A stretch of DNA of 5,942 nucleotides from Candidatus Wukongarchaeum yapensis (GCA_016840425.1 JAEOSI010000149.1:1-5942), one strand, 5' to 3'. Positions 787-5,425 are shown, numbered from the stretch's first letter. Notes: generated by a model not told the origin, from the letters alone. Numbers and translations: made by a program.

Positions 787-2181
787 ATGGAAATCAAAAC
801 GATGAAAAAGTCTTCGGATTTGAAGTTTGAAAAAATTAACGAGTATATATTCGCTCCATTTAACACTTTTATTTATTTAGATGATGATGAGATAGGTTTT
901 GCTGGTTCGAGTTTAATTCAAAACAAACTAATTGAGGAGTTAAATAAAGAACCACTACAGATTAAGAACCAAAACCTAAAAGTTGAATGGGGTATAGAAG
1001 AATGTGAAGAGTTTAAACTTTCAAAAGGCGTTTTTTCTCCACCTGGAAAAGAGATTTCATTCGTCATGGCCCAACTTGTTGGCAAAATACTGGAAGATAG
1101 TTGTTTTCCTATAAAAGAGAAAGTTTCAGAACTTTTTCCAGAAAATTCGCTTAAGTTTAGCGATGTACGATTTTACTTTCATGACTGTGGAGTAGGAACA
1201 TGTAGCGTGCGAGTAAAATTAGAGAAAAGTGATGGAATAACAATTTTACAGTTGGAAGAAGTATCAGAAGCTTTAAACAATTTATATAAACAATATTTTG
1301 AAGATATTTGTTTCCAATTAACACGACAATATATTCAAGCCGTTCGCAAACTAAATATCCCCCATAATAATTTCGGTTTTTTGCCAGATATCAACGAAGT
1401 AGAAAAGGCAGTACATTTCATACCATGGACTCACAGACTTTATCACATAGATGATGACTCCCTTTTTGAGTTAGAAAATCCGGGAGAACCGTTTAAATTT
1501 CTACTCACCCCCTCCAGACAAATGGATGTACAAGACCTTTCAATCTATGATAATCGATACGTATATTTCGGTTGGGGCCACTCTATAATCTTCACATCTA
1601 GTCAGGAAGAGGGTTATTCACAAACAACTAGACCTGTATATGATTACGTAAGGCTAGTAGAAATCGCCCAAGCCAAGTGGCAATTCCTTGATGTACTAAC
1701 AGACATAGTTGATTTTGCCATTGCTAGCTTTAATAGGCACCACAAAGATATGCAAATGAAAGACCTTCAAACCGCTATTGATGAAATCCGAAATTTTGAA
1801 AATGCAATTGATCGCATTTTAGACTATTTTAGAGGGGTAAAAATCACGTTCGACACAGAAAAACGACTCCTCCTTAGAGAGTTACATGAAAGATGGCTCA
1901 CAGACCAAATGCTTGAAAAACTCCAAGGCAGGGTAAAACTAATAGAAGAAGTACTAAACGAGCTTTATCAACGACAAAAAGAACAAAGAGACGAATCTTT
2001 AAACACAATAGCGCTATTATTCACAATCGTTGGCATCATCGAAGTTTTCGCAGTTGTTTTCGACATTCTAAGCTCATCTTACGAGATAAACCCCATACTC
2101 GAACTGATTATAATCGGGACAGGGACATTAATAATGGCTTTATTAATAATTATATACATCAGATACGCAGAAAGAGGCTAA
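787..2181 (+). CDS. Divergent CorA-like membrane protein (large soluble N-terminal domain, long stalk helices, two C-terminal TM helices, no GMN motif)
   Basis: 464 aa ORF. A long amphipathic/coiled region (EIAQAKWQFLD...LNELYQRQKEQRDE) runs directly into TM1 (SLNTIALLFTIVGIIEVFAVVF), a short loop and TM2 (ILELIIIGTGTLIMALLIIIYI). This is the CorA-superfamily layout. The start could also be ATG 802. The CDS is secure; the family assignment rests on architecture only. Confidence 0.6.
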   Translation: MEIKTMKKSSDLKFEKINEYIFAPFNTFIYLDDDEIGFAGSSLIQNKLIEELNKEPLQIKNQNLKVEWGIEECEEFKLSKGVFSPPGKEISFVMAQLVGKILEDSCFPIKEKVSELFPENSLKFSDVRFYFHDCGVGTCSVRVKLEKSDGITILQLEEVSEALNNLYKQYFEDICFQLTRQYIQAVRKLNIPHNNFGFLPDINEVEKAVHFIPWTHRLYHIDDDSLFELENPGEPFKFLLTPSRQMDVQDLSIYDNRYVYFGWGHSIIFTSSQEEGYSQTTRPVYDYVRLVEIAQAKWQFLDVLTDIVDFAIASFNRHHKDMQMKDLQTAIDEIRNFENAIDRILDYFRGVKITFDTEKRLLLRELHERWLTDQMLEKLQGRVKLIEEVLNELYQRQKEQRDESLNTIALLFTIVGIIEVFAVVFDILSSSYEINPILELIIIGTGTLIMALLIIIYIRYAERG

Positions 2182-2984: not shown

Positions 2985-4316
2985 CTAAGTCCCGATTTTC
3001 CACGATTTTAGGTATTCTTCTTGTTGTTCTGTAAGTTTTTCCGTTTTGAGATCCATTGTTTCTAGTTTTAATCGAGCTACTTTTTCATCGATGTCCTGGG
3101 GCACATCAATCACCGTTACCGGTAGTTTATCTGCGTTTTTCACCATGTATTCGGCGCAGAGGGCTTGTAGTGCGAAGCTCATATCCATGACTTCGCTTGG
3201 GTGTCCTTTTGCGCATGCAAGGTTCACCAATCTTCCTTCGCCTAGGAGGAAGAGCCTTTTTCCGTTTTTAAGCTTATATTCGGTGACTAAGGGCCTTATT
3301 TCTCTTATGTTTTCAGATAGCTCTTCTAGGTCTGGTTTCGATATTTCCACATCGAAATGACCGGCGTTTGCTAGGATTGCTTCGTTTTTCATGAGTTCGA
3401 AGTGTTCTTTTCTGATAACGTTTATGTTTCCTGTGGCTGTTATGAAAATGTCACCGTACTCTGCAGCTTCCCTCATTGTGGCGACTCTAAACCCGTACAT
3501 TGCGGCTTTTAATGCGTTATGGGGTTTAACGTCCACTACGATGACTAAAGCCCCTAGGCCTCTTGCCCTTTCTGCTATGCCTGATCCTACATGTCCATAA
3601 CCGACAACCACGAAGTTTTTACCGGCAATTAATACGTCTGTAGCGCGAATGACTCCATCGAGGGCAGACTGTCCTGTGCCTACGGGGTTGTCAAAGAGAT
3701 TTTTGCTTTTAGCATCATTAACCGCCACTAGGGGGTATTTTAACGCGCCATCCCTCGCCATAGCCCGCAATCTAATAACCCCGGTTGTGGTTTCTTCGCT
3801 TCCCCCGATAACTTTCTCTATAAGGTCGGGTCTTTCTCCCAAAACACTTTCCACGATATCCATTTCACCCCCTTTCTCTCCCCTTGCCATTTTATGCAAG
3901 GTTGAAACAAGGTCTGCCCCATCATCTATCGTAATATCAGCTTCATGAGAAAGCGCATAACCTATACACCTATAATAATCCTCGTTCGACTCTCCTTTTA
4001 TCGCGTAAACATTTATACCCTCAACTGCGAGGGCTGCAGCCACCTCATCTGTTGTAGACAAAGGATTAGAAGCAGTAAGAACAACTTTTGCACCTCCTGC
4101 TTTTAAGGTTCTTGCTAGAACCCCAGTCTCCTTAGTAATATGCAGACATCCAACCAGAGTATAACCTTTAAGAGGCTTCTCCTCCTCAAACCTTTTCCGG
4201 ATCTTCATAACAACAGGCATGCTCAACTCAGCCCATTCAAGAAGCTTCCTACCATCAGCCTCGAGCGAGATATCCTTAACCCAATAATCTGGAACAATTT
4301 CCATCTCCAAAAACAT
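2985..4316 (-). CDS. ahcY: Adenosylhomocysteinase (S-adenosyl-L-homocysteine hydrolase)
   Basis: Family motifs [40 protein letters not shown], Rossmann [19 protein letters not shown] and [23 protein letters not shown]. Alternative start at ATG 4304. Confidence 0.98.
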
Positions 4317-4353
4317 CCACCAACCTTTTCAATAAACTTCAACAAAATTCTAC

Positions 4354-4365
4354 ATTTAACTTTGT
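4354..4365 (-). promoter_or_regulatory. Probable ahcY core promoter spanning the element's left junction (ACAAAG + TTAAAT on - strand)
   Basis: The - strand reads ...CGACAAAG|TTAAATGTAG.... TTAAAT begins at 4359, which predicts a TSS near 4330 at a T/G step and a ~14 nt leader (GAAAAGGTTGGTGG) before ATG 4316. Inferred from motif and spacing. Confidence 0.5.
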
Positions 4366-4370
4366 CGGCG

Positions 4371-4396
4371 GGAAGTCCCGTTGCGACAGCCGGGGA
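4371..4396 (+). repeat. Left-end subterminal hairpin (TnpA recognition site)
   Basis: GGAAG-TCCCGTTG-CGA-CAGCCGGGGA: imperfect palindrome with a CGA triloop, 15-16 nt from the left junction. Confidence 0.7.
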
Positions 4397-4417
4397 ATGA
4401 AAGCCGAACAACAATAA

Positions 4418-4431
4418 TAAAGTATTTATAT
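4418..4431 (+). promoter_or_regulatory. Element-internal BRE/TATA promoter, predicted to drive the omegaRNA
   Basis: TAAAGTA-TTTATAT, with TTTATA at 4425-4430, predicts a TSS near 4452-4455. That is exactly where the long-range RNA stem begins. The reverse strand also reads GAAAAA-TATAAATA, so it may be bidirectional. Confidence 0.6.
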
Positions 4432-4540
4432 TTTTCATCATATATAGTCTTACGCTTACCTGCAGGCAAGGGTCGAAATATGCAGCATCGTCTTGAGTCC
4501 TGTATTTCGTAAAGCCGAAAGGAAGTCAAGACGGGGCGCA

Positions 4541-4629
4541 GTAGGGCAGGGACTGCCCGAATTCACGCCTGTGGAGATTCCAGCAGGTAATCGTTGAAAC
4601 AGGAAGCTCTTTCCGAGAGGGAGGAGTAG
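4541..4629 (+). pseudogene. tnpB: Remnant of the extreme 3' end of tnpB
   Basis: 4541-4597 reads VGQGLPEFTPVEIPAGNR*, and 4591-4629 reads SLKQEALSEREE* in another frame. Both resemble TnpB C-terminal tails but are now out of frame with each other. There is no zinc finger or RuvC motif upstream and no ATG in frame. Confidence 0.6.
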
Positions 4630-4634
4630 TTCAC
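4602..4634 (+). repeat. Right-end subterminal hairpin and cleavage motif
   Basis: GGAAG-CTCTTTC-CGA-GAGGGAG-GAGTAGTTCAC. It shares the GGAAG foot and CGA triloop with the left-end hairpin and ends 11 nt from the terminal TTCAC. Confidence 0.75.
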
Positions 4635-4642
4635 TCTTTTAT

Positions 4643-4692
4643 GTCTTCCCAATCTTCATACAGACTAACCCTAAAGAATATTTTGGGAAGAC
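4643..4692. repeat. Inverted repeat in the right flank
   Basis: Perfect 10 bp arms GTCTTCCCAA (4643-4652) and TTGGGAAGAC (4683-4692) with a 30 nt spacer, extendable with bulges to about 4637/4697. Confidence 0.8.
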
Positions 4693-4744
4693 TAAGAAAA
4701 ATATAGGAATAAAGGAGAGGACTTGGCCTACCAATGTGGTGGCG

Positions 4745-4804
4745 TTTAATTTTTTTTCTTCTCCCATTTTTTGAAGTTGTTTTTTTAAGAAAAAAGGGCA
4801 AAAA
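4745..4804. terminator. Bidirectional oligo-T terminator zone
   Basis: + strand T runs at 4750-4757, 4767-4772 and 4780-4786 could end the omegaRNA read-through transcript. A runs at 4790-4795 and 4800-4804 are T runs on the - strand, downstream of the 4841 stop. Confidence 0.5.
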
Positions 4805-4840
4805 GGATTTTTCTTTTTGTCTTTTCTTTATCGCCTACTG

Positions 4841-5425
4841 TTATTTTTTTCCTCGGTCGCGTTCTCGGAACCCTGAGAGGTGATATACGCAGACTGATGA
4901 GCCAAGCTTTGCTTTGACATCGTCTGGTGAAACCCCTACTTCTTGTATGTTTTTTTCTGCGAGCACTATTTCTCCTGTGATGGGGTGTTTTGCTCCTAAC
5001 TGCTTTACTTCTAATGCGAACTGAAACCCTATAGCGTCTCTGAAAGCTTGATGGATCAAGCAAAAGGGCACTACTGCGGCATGTTTTCCCGTTTTGTTTG
5101 CCGCCTCCAACATTTTTTCGACTTCTAAAGGTATACTTCTAAGCGCGAATTTGTTATAATTTTCAGTTAAGTTGAAATAAGGGCATCTTGGAAGGGATAT
5201 TATATTTCCATCCTTTTCAGCGGGAGCAGATTCAAAGGTGCTTAAAGCAGTTAATACGTCCGCTTCGCCTCCGAACTGTGCAAGCATCGTAAAAGCGAGT
5301 TTTTTACCTACTCTTGCAAAAGTTCCGTAAGCGAGTTTAGGATCAAAGAAGTTTGCAAACTCCTTCAATAGGTAGAAGTAGGCCCTAGGAAACATGTTGC
5401 TAAATTTTTCAGAATCTTCACTCAT
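4841..5425 (-). CDS. Hypothetical protein, probable V4R/MetOD1-like small ligand-binding domain with a Cys/His metal site
   Basis: 194 aa ORF with SD-like GAGGGTGGG 9 nt upstream of the ATG. A helical N-terminus (GTFARVGKKLA) is followed by a CPY (C81) ... FCLIH (C122, H125) ... VCVY (C179) pattern reminiscent of V4R-fold proteins. The CDS is likely real; the family call is tentative. Confidence 0.55.
   Translation of the reverse strand: MSEDSEKFSNMFPRAYFYLLKEFANFFDPKLAYGTFARVGKKLAFTMLAQFGGEADVLTALSTFESAPAEKDGNIISLPRCPYFNLTENYNKFALRSIPLEVEKMLEAANKTGKHAAVVPFCLIHQAFRDAIGFQFALEVKQLGAKHPITGEIVLAEKNIQEVGVSPDDVKAKLGSSVCVYHLSGFRERDRGKK

What the first reader, a model, noticed from the sequence alone, without database searches (positions are those of the whole stretch)
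4360..4654. ORF-less IS200/IS605 mini-element acting as a self-contained, promoter-driven guide-RNA cassette
Seen in sequence: TTTAA target motif, matched left and right end hairpins (same GGAAG foot, same CGA triloop), a TTCAC right end, a tnpB tail remnant, and an internal TATA whose predicted TSS coincides with the 5' end of a structured RNA. Established: TnpB nucleases use an omegaRNA made from the element's right end plus flanking DNA as guide; TTTAA is a known TnpB TAM; ORF-less PATE-type derivatives exist. Inference: in a normal element this RNA is processed from the tnpB mRNA, but this 275 bp unit has a dedicated archaeal promoter and no protein. It could be mobilised by TnpA in trans and could program a TnpB or nuclease-dead TnpB derivative in trans. 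Each new insertion would then create a new guide, giving a dispersed guide-RNA repertoire in an archaeon.
Basis: partly seen in the sequence, partly recalled or inferred. Interest (0 to 1): 0.82.

Follow-up and report, generated by a model that had tools for sequence, protein, structure and literature searches.

The report
Protein-free mobile guide-RNA cassette
A 275-base jumping element in an Asgard archaeon has lost its genes but keeps a promoter and a conserved folded RNA of the kind that guides TnpB nucleases; stand-alone guide elements are already known, so this is a well-documented new example whose RNA carries an unusual extra domain.

Summary
Window 4360-4634 is a 275-bp ORF-less IS200/IS605 derivative, of the kind called a PATE or stand-alone omegaRNA.

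- **Mobility.** The element sits 3' of TTTAA with no duplication.
- **Family in this genome.** There are about 12 ORF-less copies. About 13 right ends lie behind tnpB genes, at least two of them intact with the D-E-D motifs, and there is one Y1 tnpA.
- **Promoter.** The TATA box (4424-4431) is not a new promoter. It is the tnpB promoter carried in the left end, retained after tnpB was deleted.
- **RNA.** The 183-nt RNA (4452-4634) has a core homologous to the tnpB 3' end. It also has a 95-nt pseudoknotted 5' domain with strong covariation.
- **5' domain distribution.** It was found only in ORF-less elements: 21 copies against 136 TnpB hits in six genomes. These span Asgard, Bathyarchaeia and Bacillota. 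The bacterial copies have an extended -10 box where the archaeal copies have TATA.
- **Not shown.** Expression is only hinted at by contigs in one RNA library. Use by TnpB in trans is inferred.
- **Novelty.** Stand-alone omegaRNAs and omegaRNA-bearing PATEs are published, so this is a new variant of a known kind. Other first readers of this scan noted sibling copies in other windows of this genome.

The parts
4355..4359 (+). TTTAA target site, the presumed TAM, directly 5' of the element
   Evidence: Conserved 5' of the copies. Retained in the empty-site alleles. TTTAA is the experimentally shown TAM of archaeal SisTnpB1 (10.1101/2023.03.06.531077).
4360..4634 (+). Whole 275-bp ORF-less IS200/IS605 mini-element (PATE / stand-alone omegaRNA element)
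   Evidence: Metagenome contigs skip exactly this stretch. It is absent from the orthologous site of G001. Homologous copies lie in other flanks.
4366..4406 (+). Left-end subterminal imperfect palindrome (outer CGGC/GCCG, inner TCCCG/CGGGGA, GGAAG foot), the presumed TnpA recognition hairpin
   Evidence: Alignments of copies and of full-length elements show compensatory stem changes. The single-copy DNA fold is not significant.
4417..4432 (+). A-rich BRE-like stretch plus TATA box ATTTATAT (4424-4431). This is the inherited tnpB promoter of the left end.
   Evidence: A TATA box sits at the same place in the short minis, in the long minis of other genera and upstream of tnpB in full-length elements. 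Bacterial relatives have an extended -10 box at the equivalent place.
4452..4546 (+). 5' domain of the RNA. A closing helix starts at 4453. Inside it lies an H-type pseudoknot formed by stems 4477-4485/4502-4510 and 4488-4496/4526-4534. ACCUGC (4458-4463) may pair with GCAGGU (4584-4589).
   Evidence: Covariation: the pseudoknot stem has compensatory changes in 8 of 9 pairs. The covariance model R1 finds this domain only in ORF-less elements.
4541..4576 (+). tnpB C-terminal coding remnant (reads VGQGLPEFTPVE). It includes the hairpin GGGCAG-GGA-CTGCCC (4544-4558).
   Evidence: Homologous to the last codons of the full-length tnpB ORFs in this genome. The hairpin covaries.
4568..4605 (+). CCUGU..GGAGA..hairpin..CGUUGAA..ACAGG module, resembling the k-turn of RAGATH-18-type TnpB guide RNAs
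   Evidence: Sub-threshold Rfam match to RAGATH-18 (29.4 bits against a gathering score of 44.9). The outer helix covaries (CCUG/CAGG to CUCG/CGAG).
4606..4634 (+). Right-end hairpin (4606-4627) and invariant terminus AGTTCAC (4628-4634), which is the right cleavage site and the 3' end of the scaffold
   Evidence: Seven of eight stem pairs show compensatory change.
4635..4654 (+). Flank that would supply the guide (TCTTTTATGTCTTCCCAATC). Together with TTTAA it reconstitutes the empty site.
   Evidence: Inference from the TnpB mechanism. The empty site TTTAA|TCTTTTAT.. exists. The 16-mer is unique in the genome.

Best explanation
Window 4360-4634 is a non-autonomous deletion derivative of a TnpB-only (IS1341-type) IS200/IS605 element. 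It keeps four things:
- the left-end hairpin;
- the left-end tnpB promoter (BRE/TATA at 4417-4432);
- a structured RNA of about 183 nt (4452-4634);
- the right-end hairpin and the ..GTTCAC terminus.

Shown here:
- It inserted 3' of TTTAA without duplication and is polymorphic in nature.
- It belongs to a multi-copy family that shares its ends with tnpB-bearing elements of the same genome.
- Its RNA core is homologous to the tnpB 3' end and right end, which is the omegaRNA region.
- The whole RNA, including a pseudoknotted 5' domain, is under structural selection from Bacillota to Asgard archaea.
- A host-appropriate promoter element sits at a fixed distance upstream of the RNA.

Inferred:
- Transcription starts at about 4452-4455 and runs through the right end into the flank. 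This would give an omegaRNA whose 3' guide is TCUUUUAUGUCUUCCC...
- TnpB made by full-length sibling elements (for example contigs C59 and C137) binds this RNA in trans.
- The complex recognises TTTAA plus the guide match, which is the vacated or empty allele, and cuts it.
- Recombination with an occupied chromosome copy then restores the element. This is the homing and retention mechanism described for TnpB.
- Movement to new TTTAA sites depends on a Y1 TnpA supplied in trans.
For: Mobility and boundaries:
- Contigs from two DNA metagenomes (marine sediment, mangrove) join 4359 to 4635.
- The orthologous site in G001 is empty.

Family in this genome:
- BLAST and nhmmer give about 12 ORF-less copies and about 13 right ends directly behind TnpB zinc-ribbon hits.
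- All 36 right-end flanks are different.

Partner proteins:
- The TnpBs of C59 and C137 (397 aa each) carry HTH_OrfB, OrfB_IS605 and TNB domains.
- The C59 protein aligns to ISDra2 TnpB structures at E about 1e-43. The GIDVGI, IAVEKLN and ERDYNSS motifs are in place.
- One Y1 TnpA is present.

Promoter:
- The TATA box is shared with full-length left ends upstream of tnpB.
- It lies at a constant distance from the RNA start in the minis of four Asgard genera.
- In three diverged bacterial lineages it is replaced by TGnTAYAAT, 14 nt before ACCUGC.

RNA structure:
- Asgard set: 97% of cells paired against 33-43% in the slid controls, with 13 compensatory pairs.
- Cross-domain set: 18 of 38 pairs compensatory.
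- Pseudoknot stem: 8 of 9 pairs compensatory.

Expression hint:
- Contigs of one metatranscriptome library cover 4434-4592 and 4563-4637. The second group continues into other flanks, so it comes from sibling insertions.

Literature:
- TTTAA is a proven archaeal TnpB TAM.
- PATEs with omegaRNAs and stand-alone omegaRNAs acting in trans are documented.
Against: - No transcript 5' end, strand or abundance is available. The RNA-library evidence consists of assembled contigs, and DNA carry-over cannot be excluded.
- One such contig starts at 4434, upstream of the predicted start.
- TnpB binding is untested. The RNA differs from the tnpB-linked scaffolds of this genome: the 5' domain is replaced and the internal hairpin is shortened. 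Compatibility with the resident TnpBs is therefore not guaranteed.
- The only intact TnpA (contig C70) sits in an element whose visible end does not resemble this family, and the MAG is 92% complete.
- The Rfam match to a TnpB guide family is below threshold.
Confidence: 0.7

Rival explanations
1. Inert deletion relic. The element is a decaying remnant. The promoter and RNA-like part survive only because the deletion happened to spare them, and the RNA has no function.
For: - It clearly arose by internal deletion of a tnpB element, and the promoter is inherited.
- Many sibling tnpB copies in the genome are themselves degraded.
- Even smaller terminal-only copies of about 48 bp exist.
- Direct expression evidence is weak.
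Against: - The RNA keeps its pairing through many compensatory changes between Bacillota, Bathyarchaeia and four Asgard genera.
- The promoter element stays at a fixed distance and changes type with the host domain.
- The insertion is polymorphic, so the element has been active recently.
Confidence: 0.1
2. The RNA is functional but is not a homing guide. It could be a decoy or hyperparasite that soaks up TnpB. It could be a regulator of sibling tnpB elements. It could be a host-recruited guide for a nuclease-dead TnpB, as with TldR.
For: - The 5' domain is private to ORF-less elements.
- In the two bacterial genomes the RNA copies outnumber or match the TnpB genes and none lies beside one.
- One sibling mini sits inside a tnpB gene (contig C177).
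Against: - The scaffold ends precisely at the transposon boundary, as homing guides do.
- The guides are simply whatever flanks the insertion, and none matches a second TAM-adjacent site.
- The intact TnpBs keep their catalytic D-E-D.
- No conserved genomic location was seen, which a domesticated guide would need: the site is empty in the sister species.
Confidence: 0.12
3. The RNA is made by processing of longer read-through transcripts, and the TATA box is irrelevant. The pseudoknotted 5' domain would then be a processing or self-cleaving module that defines the 5' end.
For: - A compact nested pseudoknot sits exactly at the RNA 5' end.
- No BRE-TATA promoter was found for the haloarchaeal sotRNAs (PMC4615843).
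- An RNA-library contig begins at 4434, upstream of the predicted start.
Against: - No Rfam ribozyme or other family matches.
- The promoter elements are conserved at a fixed distance in both domains. That would be unnecessary if read-through supplied the RNA.
Confidence: 0.08

Closest known systems
Stand-alone omegaRNAs of OMEGA systems (Altae-Tran et al. 2021, as summarised in PMC10691335)
   Same: Mobilised loci that carry a guide-RNA scaffold but no effector or transposase. They lie in genomes that also hold effector-bearing loci and are reported to work in trans.
   Different: - The case that I recall from the 2021 paper concerns IscB in a bacterium (my own memory; the summary read here names no effector).
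- This is a TnpB-type RNA in an Asgard archaeon.
- It retains an archaeal BRE/TATA promoter.
- It has a 95-nt pseudoknotted 5' domain that was not found behind any tnpB gene.
PATEs (palindrome-associated transposable elements) of Haloquadratum walsbyi and Geobacillus stearothermophilus (PMC3119063; PMC10055086)
   Same: - ORF-less IS200/IS605 derivatives made by core deletion.
- Subterminal palindromes like those of tnpB elements, no inverted repeats and no target duplication.
- Strain-specific insertions.
- Meers et al. state that PATEs often encode omegaRNAs that need TnpB in trans.
- Terminal-only forms of about 50 bp also occur here.
   Different: - Different host lineage (Asgard).
- Here the retained promoter and the RNA structure are documented by cross-domain covariation.
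- The RNA lineage with the 5' domain appears to propagate only in ORF-less form.
sotRNAs / omegaRNAs overlapping the 3' end of IS1341-type tnpB in haloarchaea (PMC4615843)
   Same: The RNA covers the tnpB C-terminal codons (..G.SE.TPVE.. tail) and the right end. It is an archaeal TnpB guide-type RNA.
   Different: sotRNAs lie inside intact tnpB genes, no BRE-TATA was found for them, and processing was favoured. Here the ORF is gone and a TATA box sits about 26 nt upstream of the RNA.
SisTnpB1 element of Sulfolobus islandicus (10.1101/2023.03.06.531077)
   Same: Archaeal IS200/IS605 TnpB system with target/TAM 5'-TTTAA.
   Different: That is a tnpA+tnpB element with demonstrated nuclease activity. 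No protein is encoded in the element studied here.
Rfam RAGATH-18 (reRNA of IS607 TnpBs, PMC11061315)
   Same: Shares the CCUGnGGAG...CGnUGAA..CAGGAA module.
   Different: The score is 29.4 bits against a gathering score of 44.9, so this RNA is not a member. The transposon family differs (Y1/IS605-type ends) and so does the rest of the scaffold.

Membership tests
IS200/IS605 non-autonomous element (PATE) | Inserts 3' of a short specific target, with no target-site duplication and no terminal inverted repeats | tested here: met
   Empty alleles read TTTAA|TCTTTTAT in two metagenomes and in G001. The ends CTTTG.. and ..GTTCAC are not inverted repeats.
IS200/IS605 non-autonomous element (PATE) | Subterminal imperfect palindromes at both ends, like those of transposase- or TnpB-bearing elements of the same genome | tested here: met
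   The left and right hairpins are shared with tnpB elements and covary. The thermodynamic DNA fold of this single copy is not significant.
IS200/IS605 non-autonomous element (PATE) | No transposase or nuclease gene inside | tested here: met
   Only short unconserved ORFs overlap 4360-4634. Related loci are also ORF-less.
IS200/IS605 non-autonomous element (PATE) | Several copies with the same ends in different flanks, and presence/absence polymorphism | tested here: met
IS200/IS605 non-autonomous element (PATE) | Excised and integrated by a Y1 (HUH) TnpA supplied in trans | not testable with these tools
   One intact Y1_Tnp gene exists (contig C70). Its specificity for these ends is unknown.
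TnpB omegaRNA (including stand-alone omegaRNA) | The scaffold occupies the right end and stops at the transposon boundary, so the 3' guide is encoded by the flank | tested here: met
   Homology to the tnpB 3' end plus right end runs up to ..GTTCAC. The flanks are unrelated.
TnpB omegaRNA (including stand-alone omegaRNA) | A cognate, catalytically intact TnpB is encoded in the same genome with a matching right end | tested here: met
   The core stretch at query 203-238 (window 4542-4577) is up to 97% identical to the tnpB-linked copy on C205.
TnpB omegaRNA (including stand-alone omegaRNA) | Conserved secondary structure, including a pseudoknot | tested here: met
   Whether this pseudoknot is the one seen in solved TnpB-omegaRNA complexes was not tested.
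TnpB omegaRNA (including stand-alone omegaRNA) | The RNA is expressed | tested here: inconclusive
   Contigs of one RNA library cover 4434-4637. Contigs show neither starts, strand nor level, and DNA carry-over is possible.
TnpB omegaRNA (including stand-alone omegaRNA) | Bound by TnpB and directs TAM-dependent DNA cleavage | not testable with these tools
   Requires biochemistry or genetics.
Rfam RF03064 RAGATH-18 | Covariance-model score at or above the curated gathering score | tested here: not met
   29.4 bits against 44.9. Relatives give no Rfam match at all.
TldR-type domesticated guide system | A nuclease-dead TnpB partner, and a guide aimed at a conserved host site | tested here: not met
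   The intact TnpB checked keeps D-E-D. The guides are unique flanks with no second TAM-adjacent match. The locus is not conserved in the sister species.

The most novel reading that the evidence does not exclude
The long RNA form (window type) may be an autonomous 'selfish guide' lineage. It would be an omegaRNA with a private, pseudoknotted 5' domain that exists only in ORF-less elements. It would have spread between Bacillota, Bathyarchaeia and several Asgard genera. It would swap promoter type with the host domain (extended -10 to BRE/TATA) and live as a parasite of both TnpA, for movement, and TnpB, for retention, each supplied by unrelated resident elements.
Probability: 0.35. Interest if true: 0.6.

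Novelty: new variant of a known kind. Interest (0 to 1): 0.42.

Why it matters
The element gives a clean natural example in Asgard archaea of the modularity of TnpA, TnpB and the guide RNA. The element is reduced to two ends, a promoter and a guide scaffold, and it is caught as a presence/absence polymorphism.

The scaffold is compact and supported by covariation, and its promoter is defined. It could be tested directly with the resident 397-aa TnpBs. The extra 5' domain raises a specific question: what does an omegaRNA need once it is freed from overlapping a coding sequence?

If the ORF-less lineage really spreads on its own across domains, guide RNAs themselves would count as units of selection in the evolutionary run-up to CRISPR-type systems.

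Tried and rejected
- **Rfam.** No family reaches its gathering score in the window. Nothing matches at E<=0.1 in bacterial, Borrarchaeum or full-length relatives. There are no tRNAs.
- **DNA folds.** Single-strand folds of the two end hairpins of this copy are not better than shuffles. The hairpin claim therefore rests on comparative data.
- **Bacterial promoter scan.** The strict two-hexamer sigma-70 scan of the bacterial relative found no promoter. The extended -10 was read by eye and is conserved in three lineages.
- **RNA library X20.** Its contigs gave no cover of 4265-4433 or of 4640-4900.
- **Viral contigs.** The 5'-domain pattern gave no match.
- **tnpB-linked 5' domain.** nhmmer, the pattern scans and the covariance model found none.
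- **Second targets of the guides.** None.
- **TnpA locus on C70.** I looked for ends of this family there. None was recognisable and the contig ends inside its tnpB.
- **IS608-style guide/cleavage-site pairing rule.** Not tested, because I could not state the rule reliably.
- **Organism name.** The species of the window's genome was not obtained. Only relatives are named.

Full report
**What is in the window.**
- The finding lies in the 524-bp spacer between two minus-strand genes. One is an S-adenosylhomocysteine hydrolase gene (2985-4316; Pfam AdoHcyase). The other is an unassigned 194-aa ORF (4841-5425).
- Only short ORFs overlap 4360-4634, and they are not conserved.
- Rfam gives one sub-threshold match: RAGATH-18 at 4568-4605, 29.4 bits against a gathering score of 44.9. 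RAGATH-18 is the guide-RNA family of IS607 TnpBs (PMC11061315).
- There are no tRNAs.

**It is a repeat family with transposon ends.**
- In the window's own genome (a 2.16-Mb MAG, 277 contigs, 38% G+C), BLAST and nhmmer find about 12 ORF-less copies that have both ends.
- Most are 'short' minis of about 200 bp. One other copy (contig C144, 273 bp, 70% identical) shares the window's 110-bp middle part.
- In the alignment every copy begins just after TTTAA(C), apart from minor variants, and ends at ..GTAGTTCAC. The flanks are unrelated.
- About 13 further right ends lie directly behind TnpB zinc-ribbon hits. The genome has 31 such hits.
- There the tnpB ORF reads through the homologous DNA and ends ..GQGLSEFTPVE... 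The window reads VGQGLPEFTPVE at 4541-4576, so the 'tnpB tail remnant' is real.

**Exact boundaries and mobility.**
- I laid public contigs on 4100-4900. In a marine-sediment run and in a mangrove run, a contig joins 4359 directly to 4635. It skips 275 bp (ends CT..AC) with no ambiguity.
- The same-genus genome G001 has the orthologous spacer without the element..CATCATTTAA|TCTTTTAATATCTTCCCC...
- The element is therefore 4360-4634. It inserted 3' of TTTAA with no duplication, which is the IS200/IS605 signature.
- Other contigs in the laid runs continue past 4634 into different flanks. One further metagenome contig does the same (L084). Sibling insertions of the same long form therefore exist in related populations.

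**Partners in the genome.**
- The TnpBs of contigs C59 and C137 (397 aa each) have the HTH_OrfB, OrfB_IS605 and TNB domains.
- The C59 protein aligns over residues 7-370 to ISDra2 TnpB structures (8H1J, 8EXA; E about 1e-43). The alignment shown, to the best hit (9YYG), has the three RuvC motifs in place: GIDVGI, IAVEKLN and ERDYNSS.
- One intact Y1 transposase (137 aa, contig C70) is followed by a tnpB start. The contig ends there, and its visible end does not look like this family.
- Mobilisation in trans is thus plausible but not assigned to a particular enzyme.

**The promoter is inherited, not invented.**
- In full-length elements the left end consists of a hairpin, a spacer and a TATA box a few tens of bases before the tnpB start codon. 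Examples are GTGTTTATAAAAG in C137, C143, C97 and C5. In Candidatus Borrarchaeum it is TTTAAATAGC, with the same spacer as in that genus's minis.
- The minis keep exactly this part.
- In the window, ATTTATAT (4424-4431), preceded by an A-rich stretch, predicts a start at about 4452-4455. This assumes the usual archaeal spacing of about 26 nt (my own knowledge).
- In the short minis the same box would start the RNA a few bases before the first core hairpin.

**The RNA is conserved and structured, and begins where the promoter predicts.**
- Homologues of the long form occur as ORF-less elements of 240-330 bp in other Asgard genera. Later scans identify them as Ca. Borrarchaeum weybense and yapensis, Ca. 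Sifarchaeum subterraneum and a Promethearchaeota MAG. They also occur in a Bathyarchaeia MAG and in two Bacillota genomes.
- Fourteen more lie on metagenome contigs and none on viral contigs.
- A consensus fold of 15 Asgard copies has 56 pairs. Of the cells, 97.2% are paired against 33-43% when the partners are slid. Thirteen pairs show compensatory change, against 0-5 in the slid controls and 0 of 500 shuffles.
- A cross-domain set of 11 sequences has 18 of 38 pairs with compensatory change.
- The first helix starts at window 4453.
- Inside the 5' domain a second stem (4488-4496 with 4526-4534) crosses the first hairpin (4477-4485 with 4502-4510). It has compensatory changes in 8 of 9 pairs, so the fold is an H-type pseudoknot.
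- A further invariant complementarity, ACCUGC (4458-4463) with GCAGGU (4584-4589), is 96.7% paired but does not vary, so it is not tested.

**The promoter type follows the host.**
- In the archaeal copies a TATA box (TTAAATAG or ATTTATAT) lies at a constant distance from the RNA start, despite insertions and deletions elsewhere in the spacer.
- In three diverged bacterial lineages the same place holds an extended -10 box: TGaTACAAT or TGgTATAAT, always 14 nt before ACCUGC.
- The strict two-hexamer scan does not call these, so this rests on reading the sequence.
- Together with the covariation, this is the main argument that the RNA is made from its own start rather than being a silent relic.

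**The 5' domain is private to ORF-less elements, as far as searched.**
- nhmmer finds it only twice in the window's genome.
- A covariance model (R1) finds 21 copies in six genomes, all in ORF-less elements. None lies next to any of the 136 TnpB zinc-ribbon hits of those genomes.
- In a sample of 151 genomes of the phylum, 7 have it, in 4 of 52 genera. This patchy spread is typical of mobile DNA.
- tnpB-linked right ends in all these genomes share only the core: GGGCAGGGACUGYCC..GCCUG....CAGGAAGC.., the terminal hairpin and GUAGUUCAC.
- The tnpB-linked copies of this genome have, at the equivalent place, a hairpin (GACUACAA/UUGUAGUC) inside the ORF. The private domain may be its coding-free replacement. 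That is inference.

**Expression.**
- One metatranscriptome library holds contigs over 4434-4592, 4563-4637 and 4563-4634. The last two continue into other flanks. It also holds a contig over part of the neighbouring hydrolase gene.
- Contigs cannot show starts, strand or level, and DNA can be present in such libraries. This is only a weak hint.

**Guides.**
- The 36 right-end flanks in the genome are all unique. None has a second TTTAA-adjacent match.
- That fits the selfish homing role. Each guide matches only its own empty site, and for the window that site exists in nature.
- It gives no support to a host-level 'repertoire' function.

**Comparison with what is known.**
- PATEs derived from IS605-type elements by core deletion, including terminal-only forms of about 50 bp, were described in Haloquadratum (PMC3119063).
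- Meers et al. note PATEs that 'often encode omegaRNAs' needing TnpB in trans (PMC10055086).
- Altae-Tran et al. summarise stand-alone omegaRNAs that are mobilised, lack an effector and function in trans (PMC10691335).
- TTTAA is the demonstrated TAM of an archaeal TnpB.
- For haloarchaeal sotRNAs no BRE-TATA was found (PMC4615843).
- The finding is therefore a member of a known class. The less ordinary parts are the conserved promoter-to-RNA arrangement across domains and the pseudoknotted 5' domain restricted to ORF-less elements.
- Other first readers of this scan noted sibling copies in other windows of the same genome.

**Verdict.**
- The 'dedicated promoter' is a retained tnpB promoter.
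- Novelty: a new variant of a known kind.
- Interest is moderate.

Noticed in passing
G000 contigs C175:3569-3865, C253:10013-10272 (minus strand), C121 near 906-915: An element beginning CAGTCTAYNCGCRTGTTAR.. is inserted at the same point (GCGAAA|) in the loop of the left-end hairpin of three mini-elements; it is about 260-300 bp in the two copies whose far end is visible (C175, C253). This recalls the SMR-A repeats that target PATE palindromes in Haloquadratum.
   Followed up: no
G000 contigs C104:5104-5158 (minus strand) and C160:793-850: Terminal-only elements of about 48 bp. The left half of the left-end hairpin is fused to the right half of the right-end hairpin (TTTAAC TTCTTCGGC.AGAAG.CCCCTTGCGAAAGCTGGGAGTAGTTCAC). 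They resemble the 52-bp terminal-only PATEs of Haloquadratum.
   Followed up: partly
window 4352-4359, minus strand: Read on the minus strand, the TTTAA target is part of TTAAATGT, 36-43 nt upstream of the hydrolase start codon (4316). This is a likely TATA box of that gene and is conserved in G001. The insertion replaced the sequence on its BRE side, so it may alter expression of the neighbouring gene.
   Followed up: no
G000 contigs C68:3995-4180, C217:10823-11000, C211:1142-960 (minus strand): Left ends of the same type are followed by a TATA-like box and a different conserved stretch (GCCTGAYT..GAGCATNTATGCAAA..) instead of tnpB or the omegaRNA core. This may be another small cargo RNA.
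   Followed up: no
L062:5255-5547, L095, L099 and L100 (Bacillota and metagenome loci): Bacterial ORF-less relatives of the same RNA use the same TTTAAC target. They carry an extended -10 box 14 nt before the RNA's ACCUGC. In the two bacterial genomes no RNA copy lies beside a TnpB gene, and in one of them (G062) RNA copies outnumber its single TnpB hit.
   Followed up: partly
G000 contig C177:4058-4262 (minus strand): A short mini-element sits on the opposite strand within a tnpB zinc-ribbon region (PF07282 hit at 4252-4404). The family therefore also inserts into its own relatives.
   Followed up: no
window 787-2181 (+) and 4841-5425 (-): Two sizeable ORFs (464 aa and 194 aa) have no Pfam match at E<=0.001.
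   Followed up: no
run X5 laid on the window, loose end before 4542: Contigs in a marine-sediment metagenome carry the omegaRNA core from 4542 onward, preceded by a different AT-rich sequence with TATA-like boxes (TTTTATACTTAATTTTTATATAAGAACTCA). This looks like a further deletion variant of the family.
   Followed up: no
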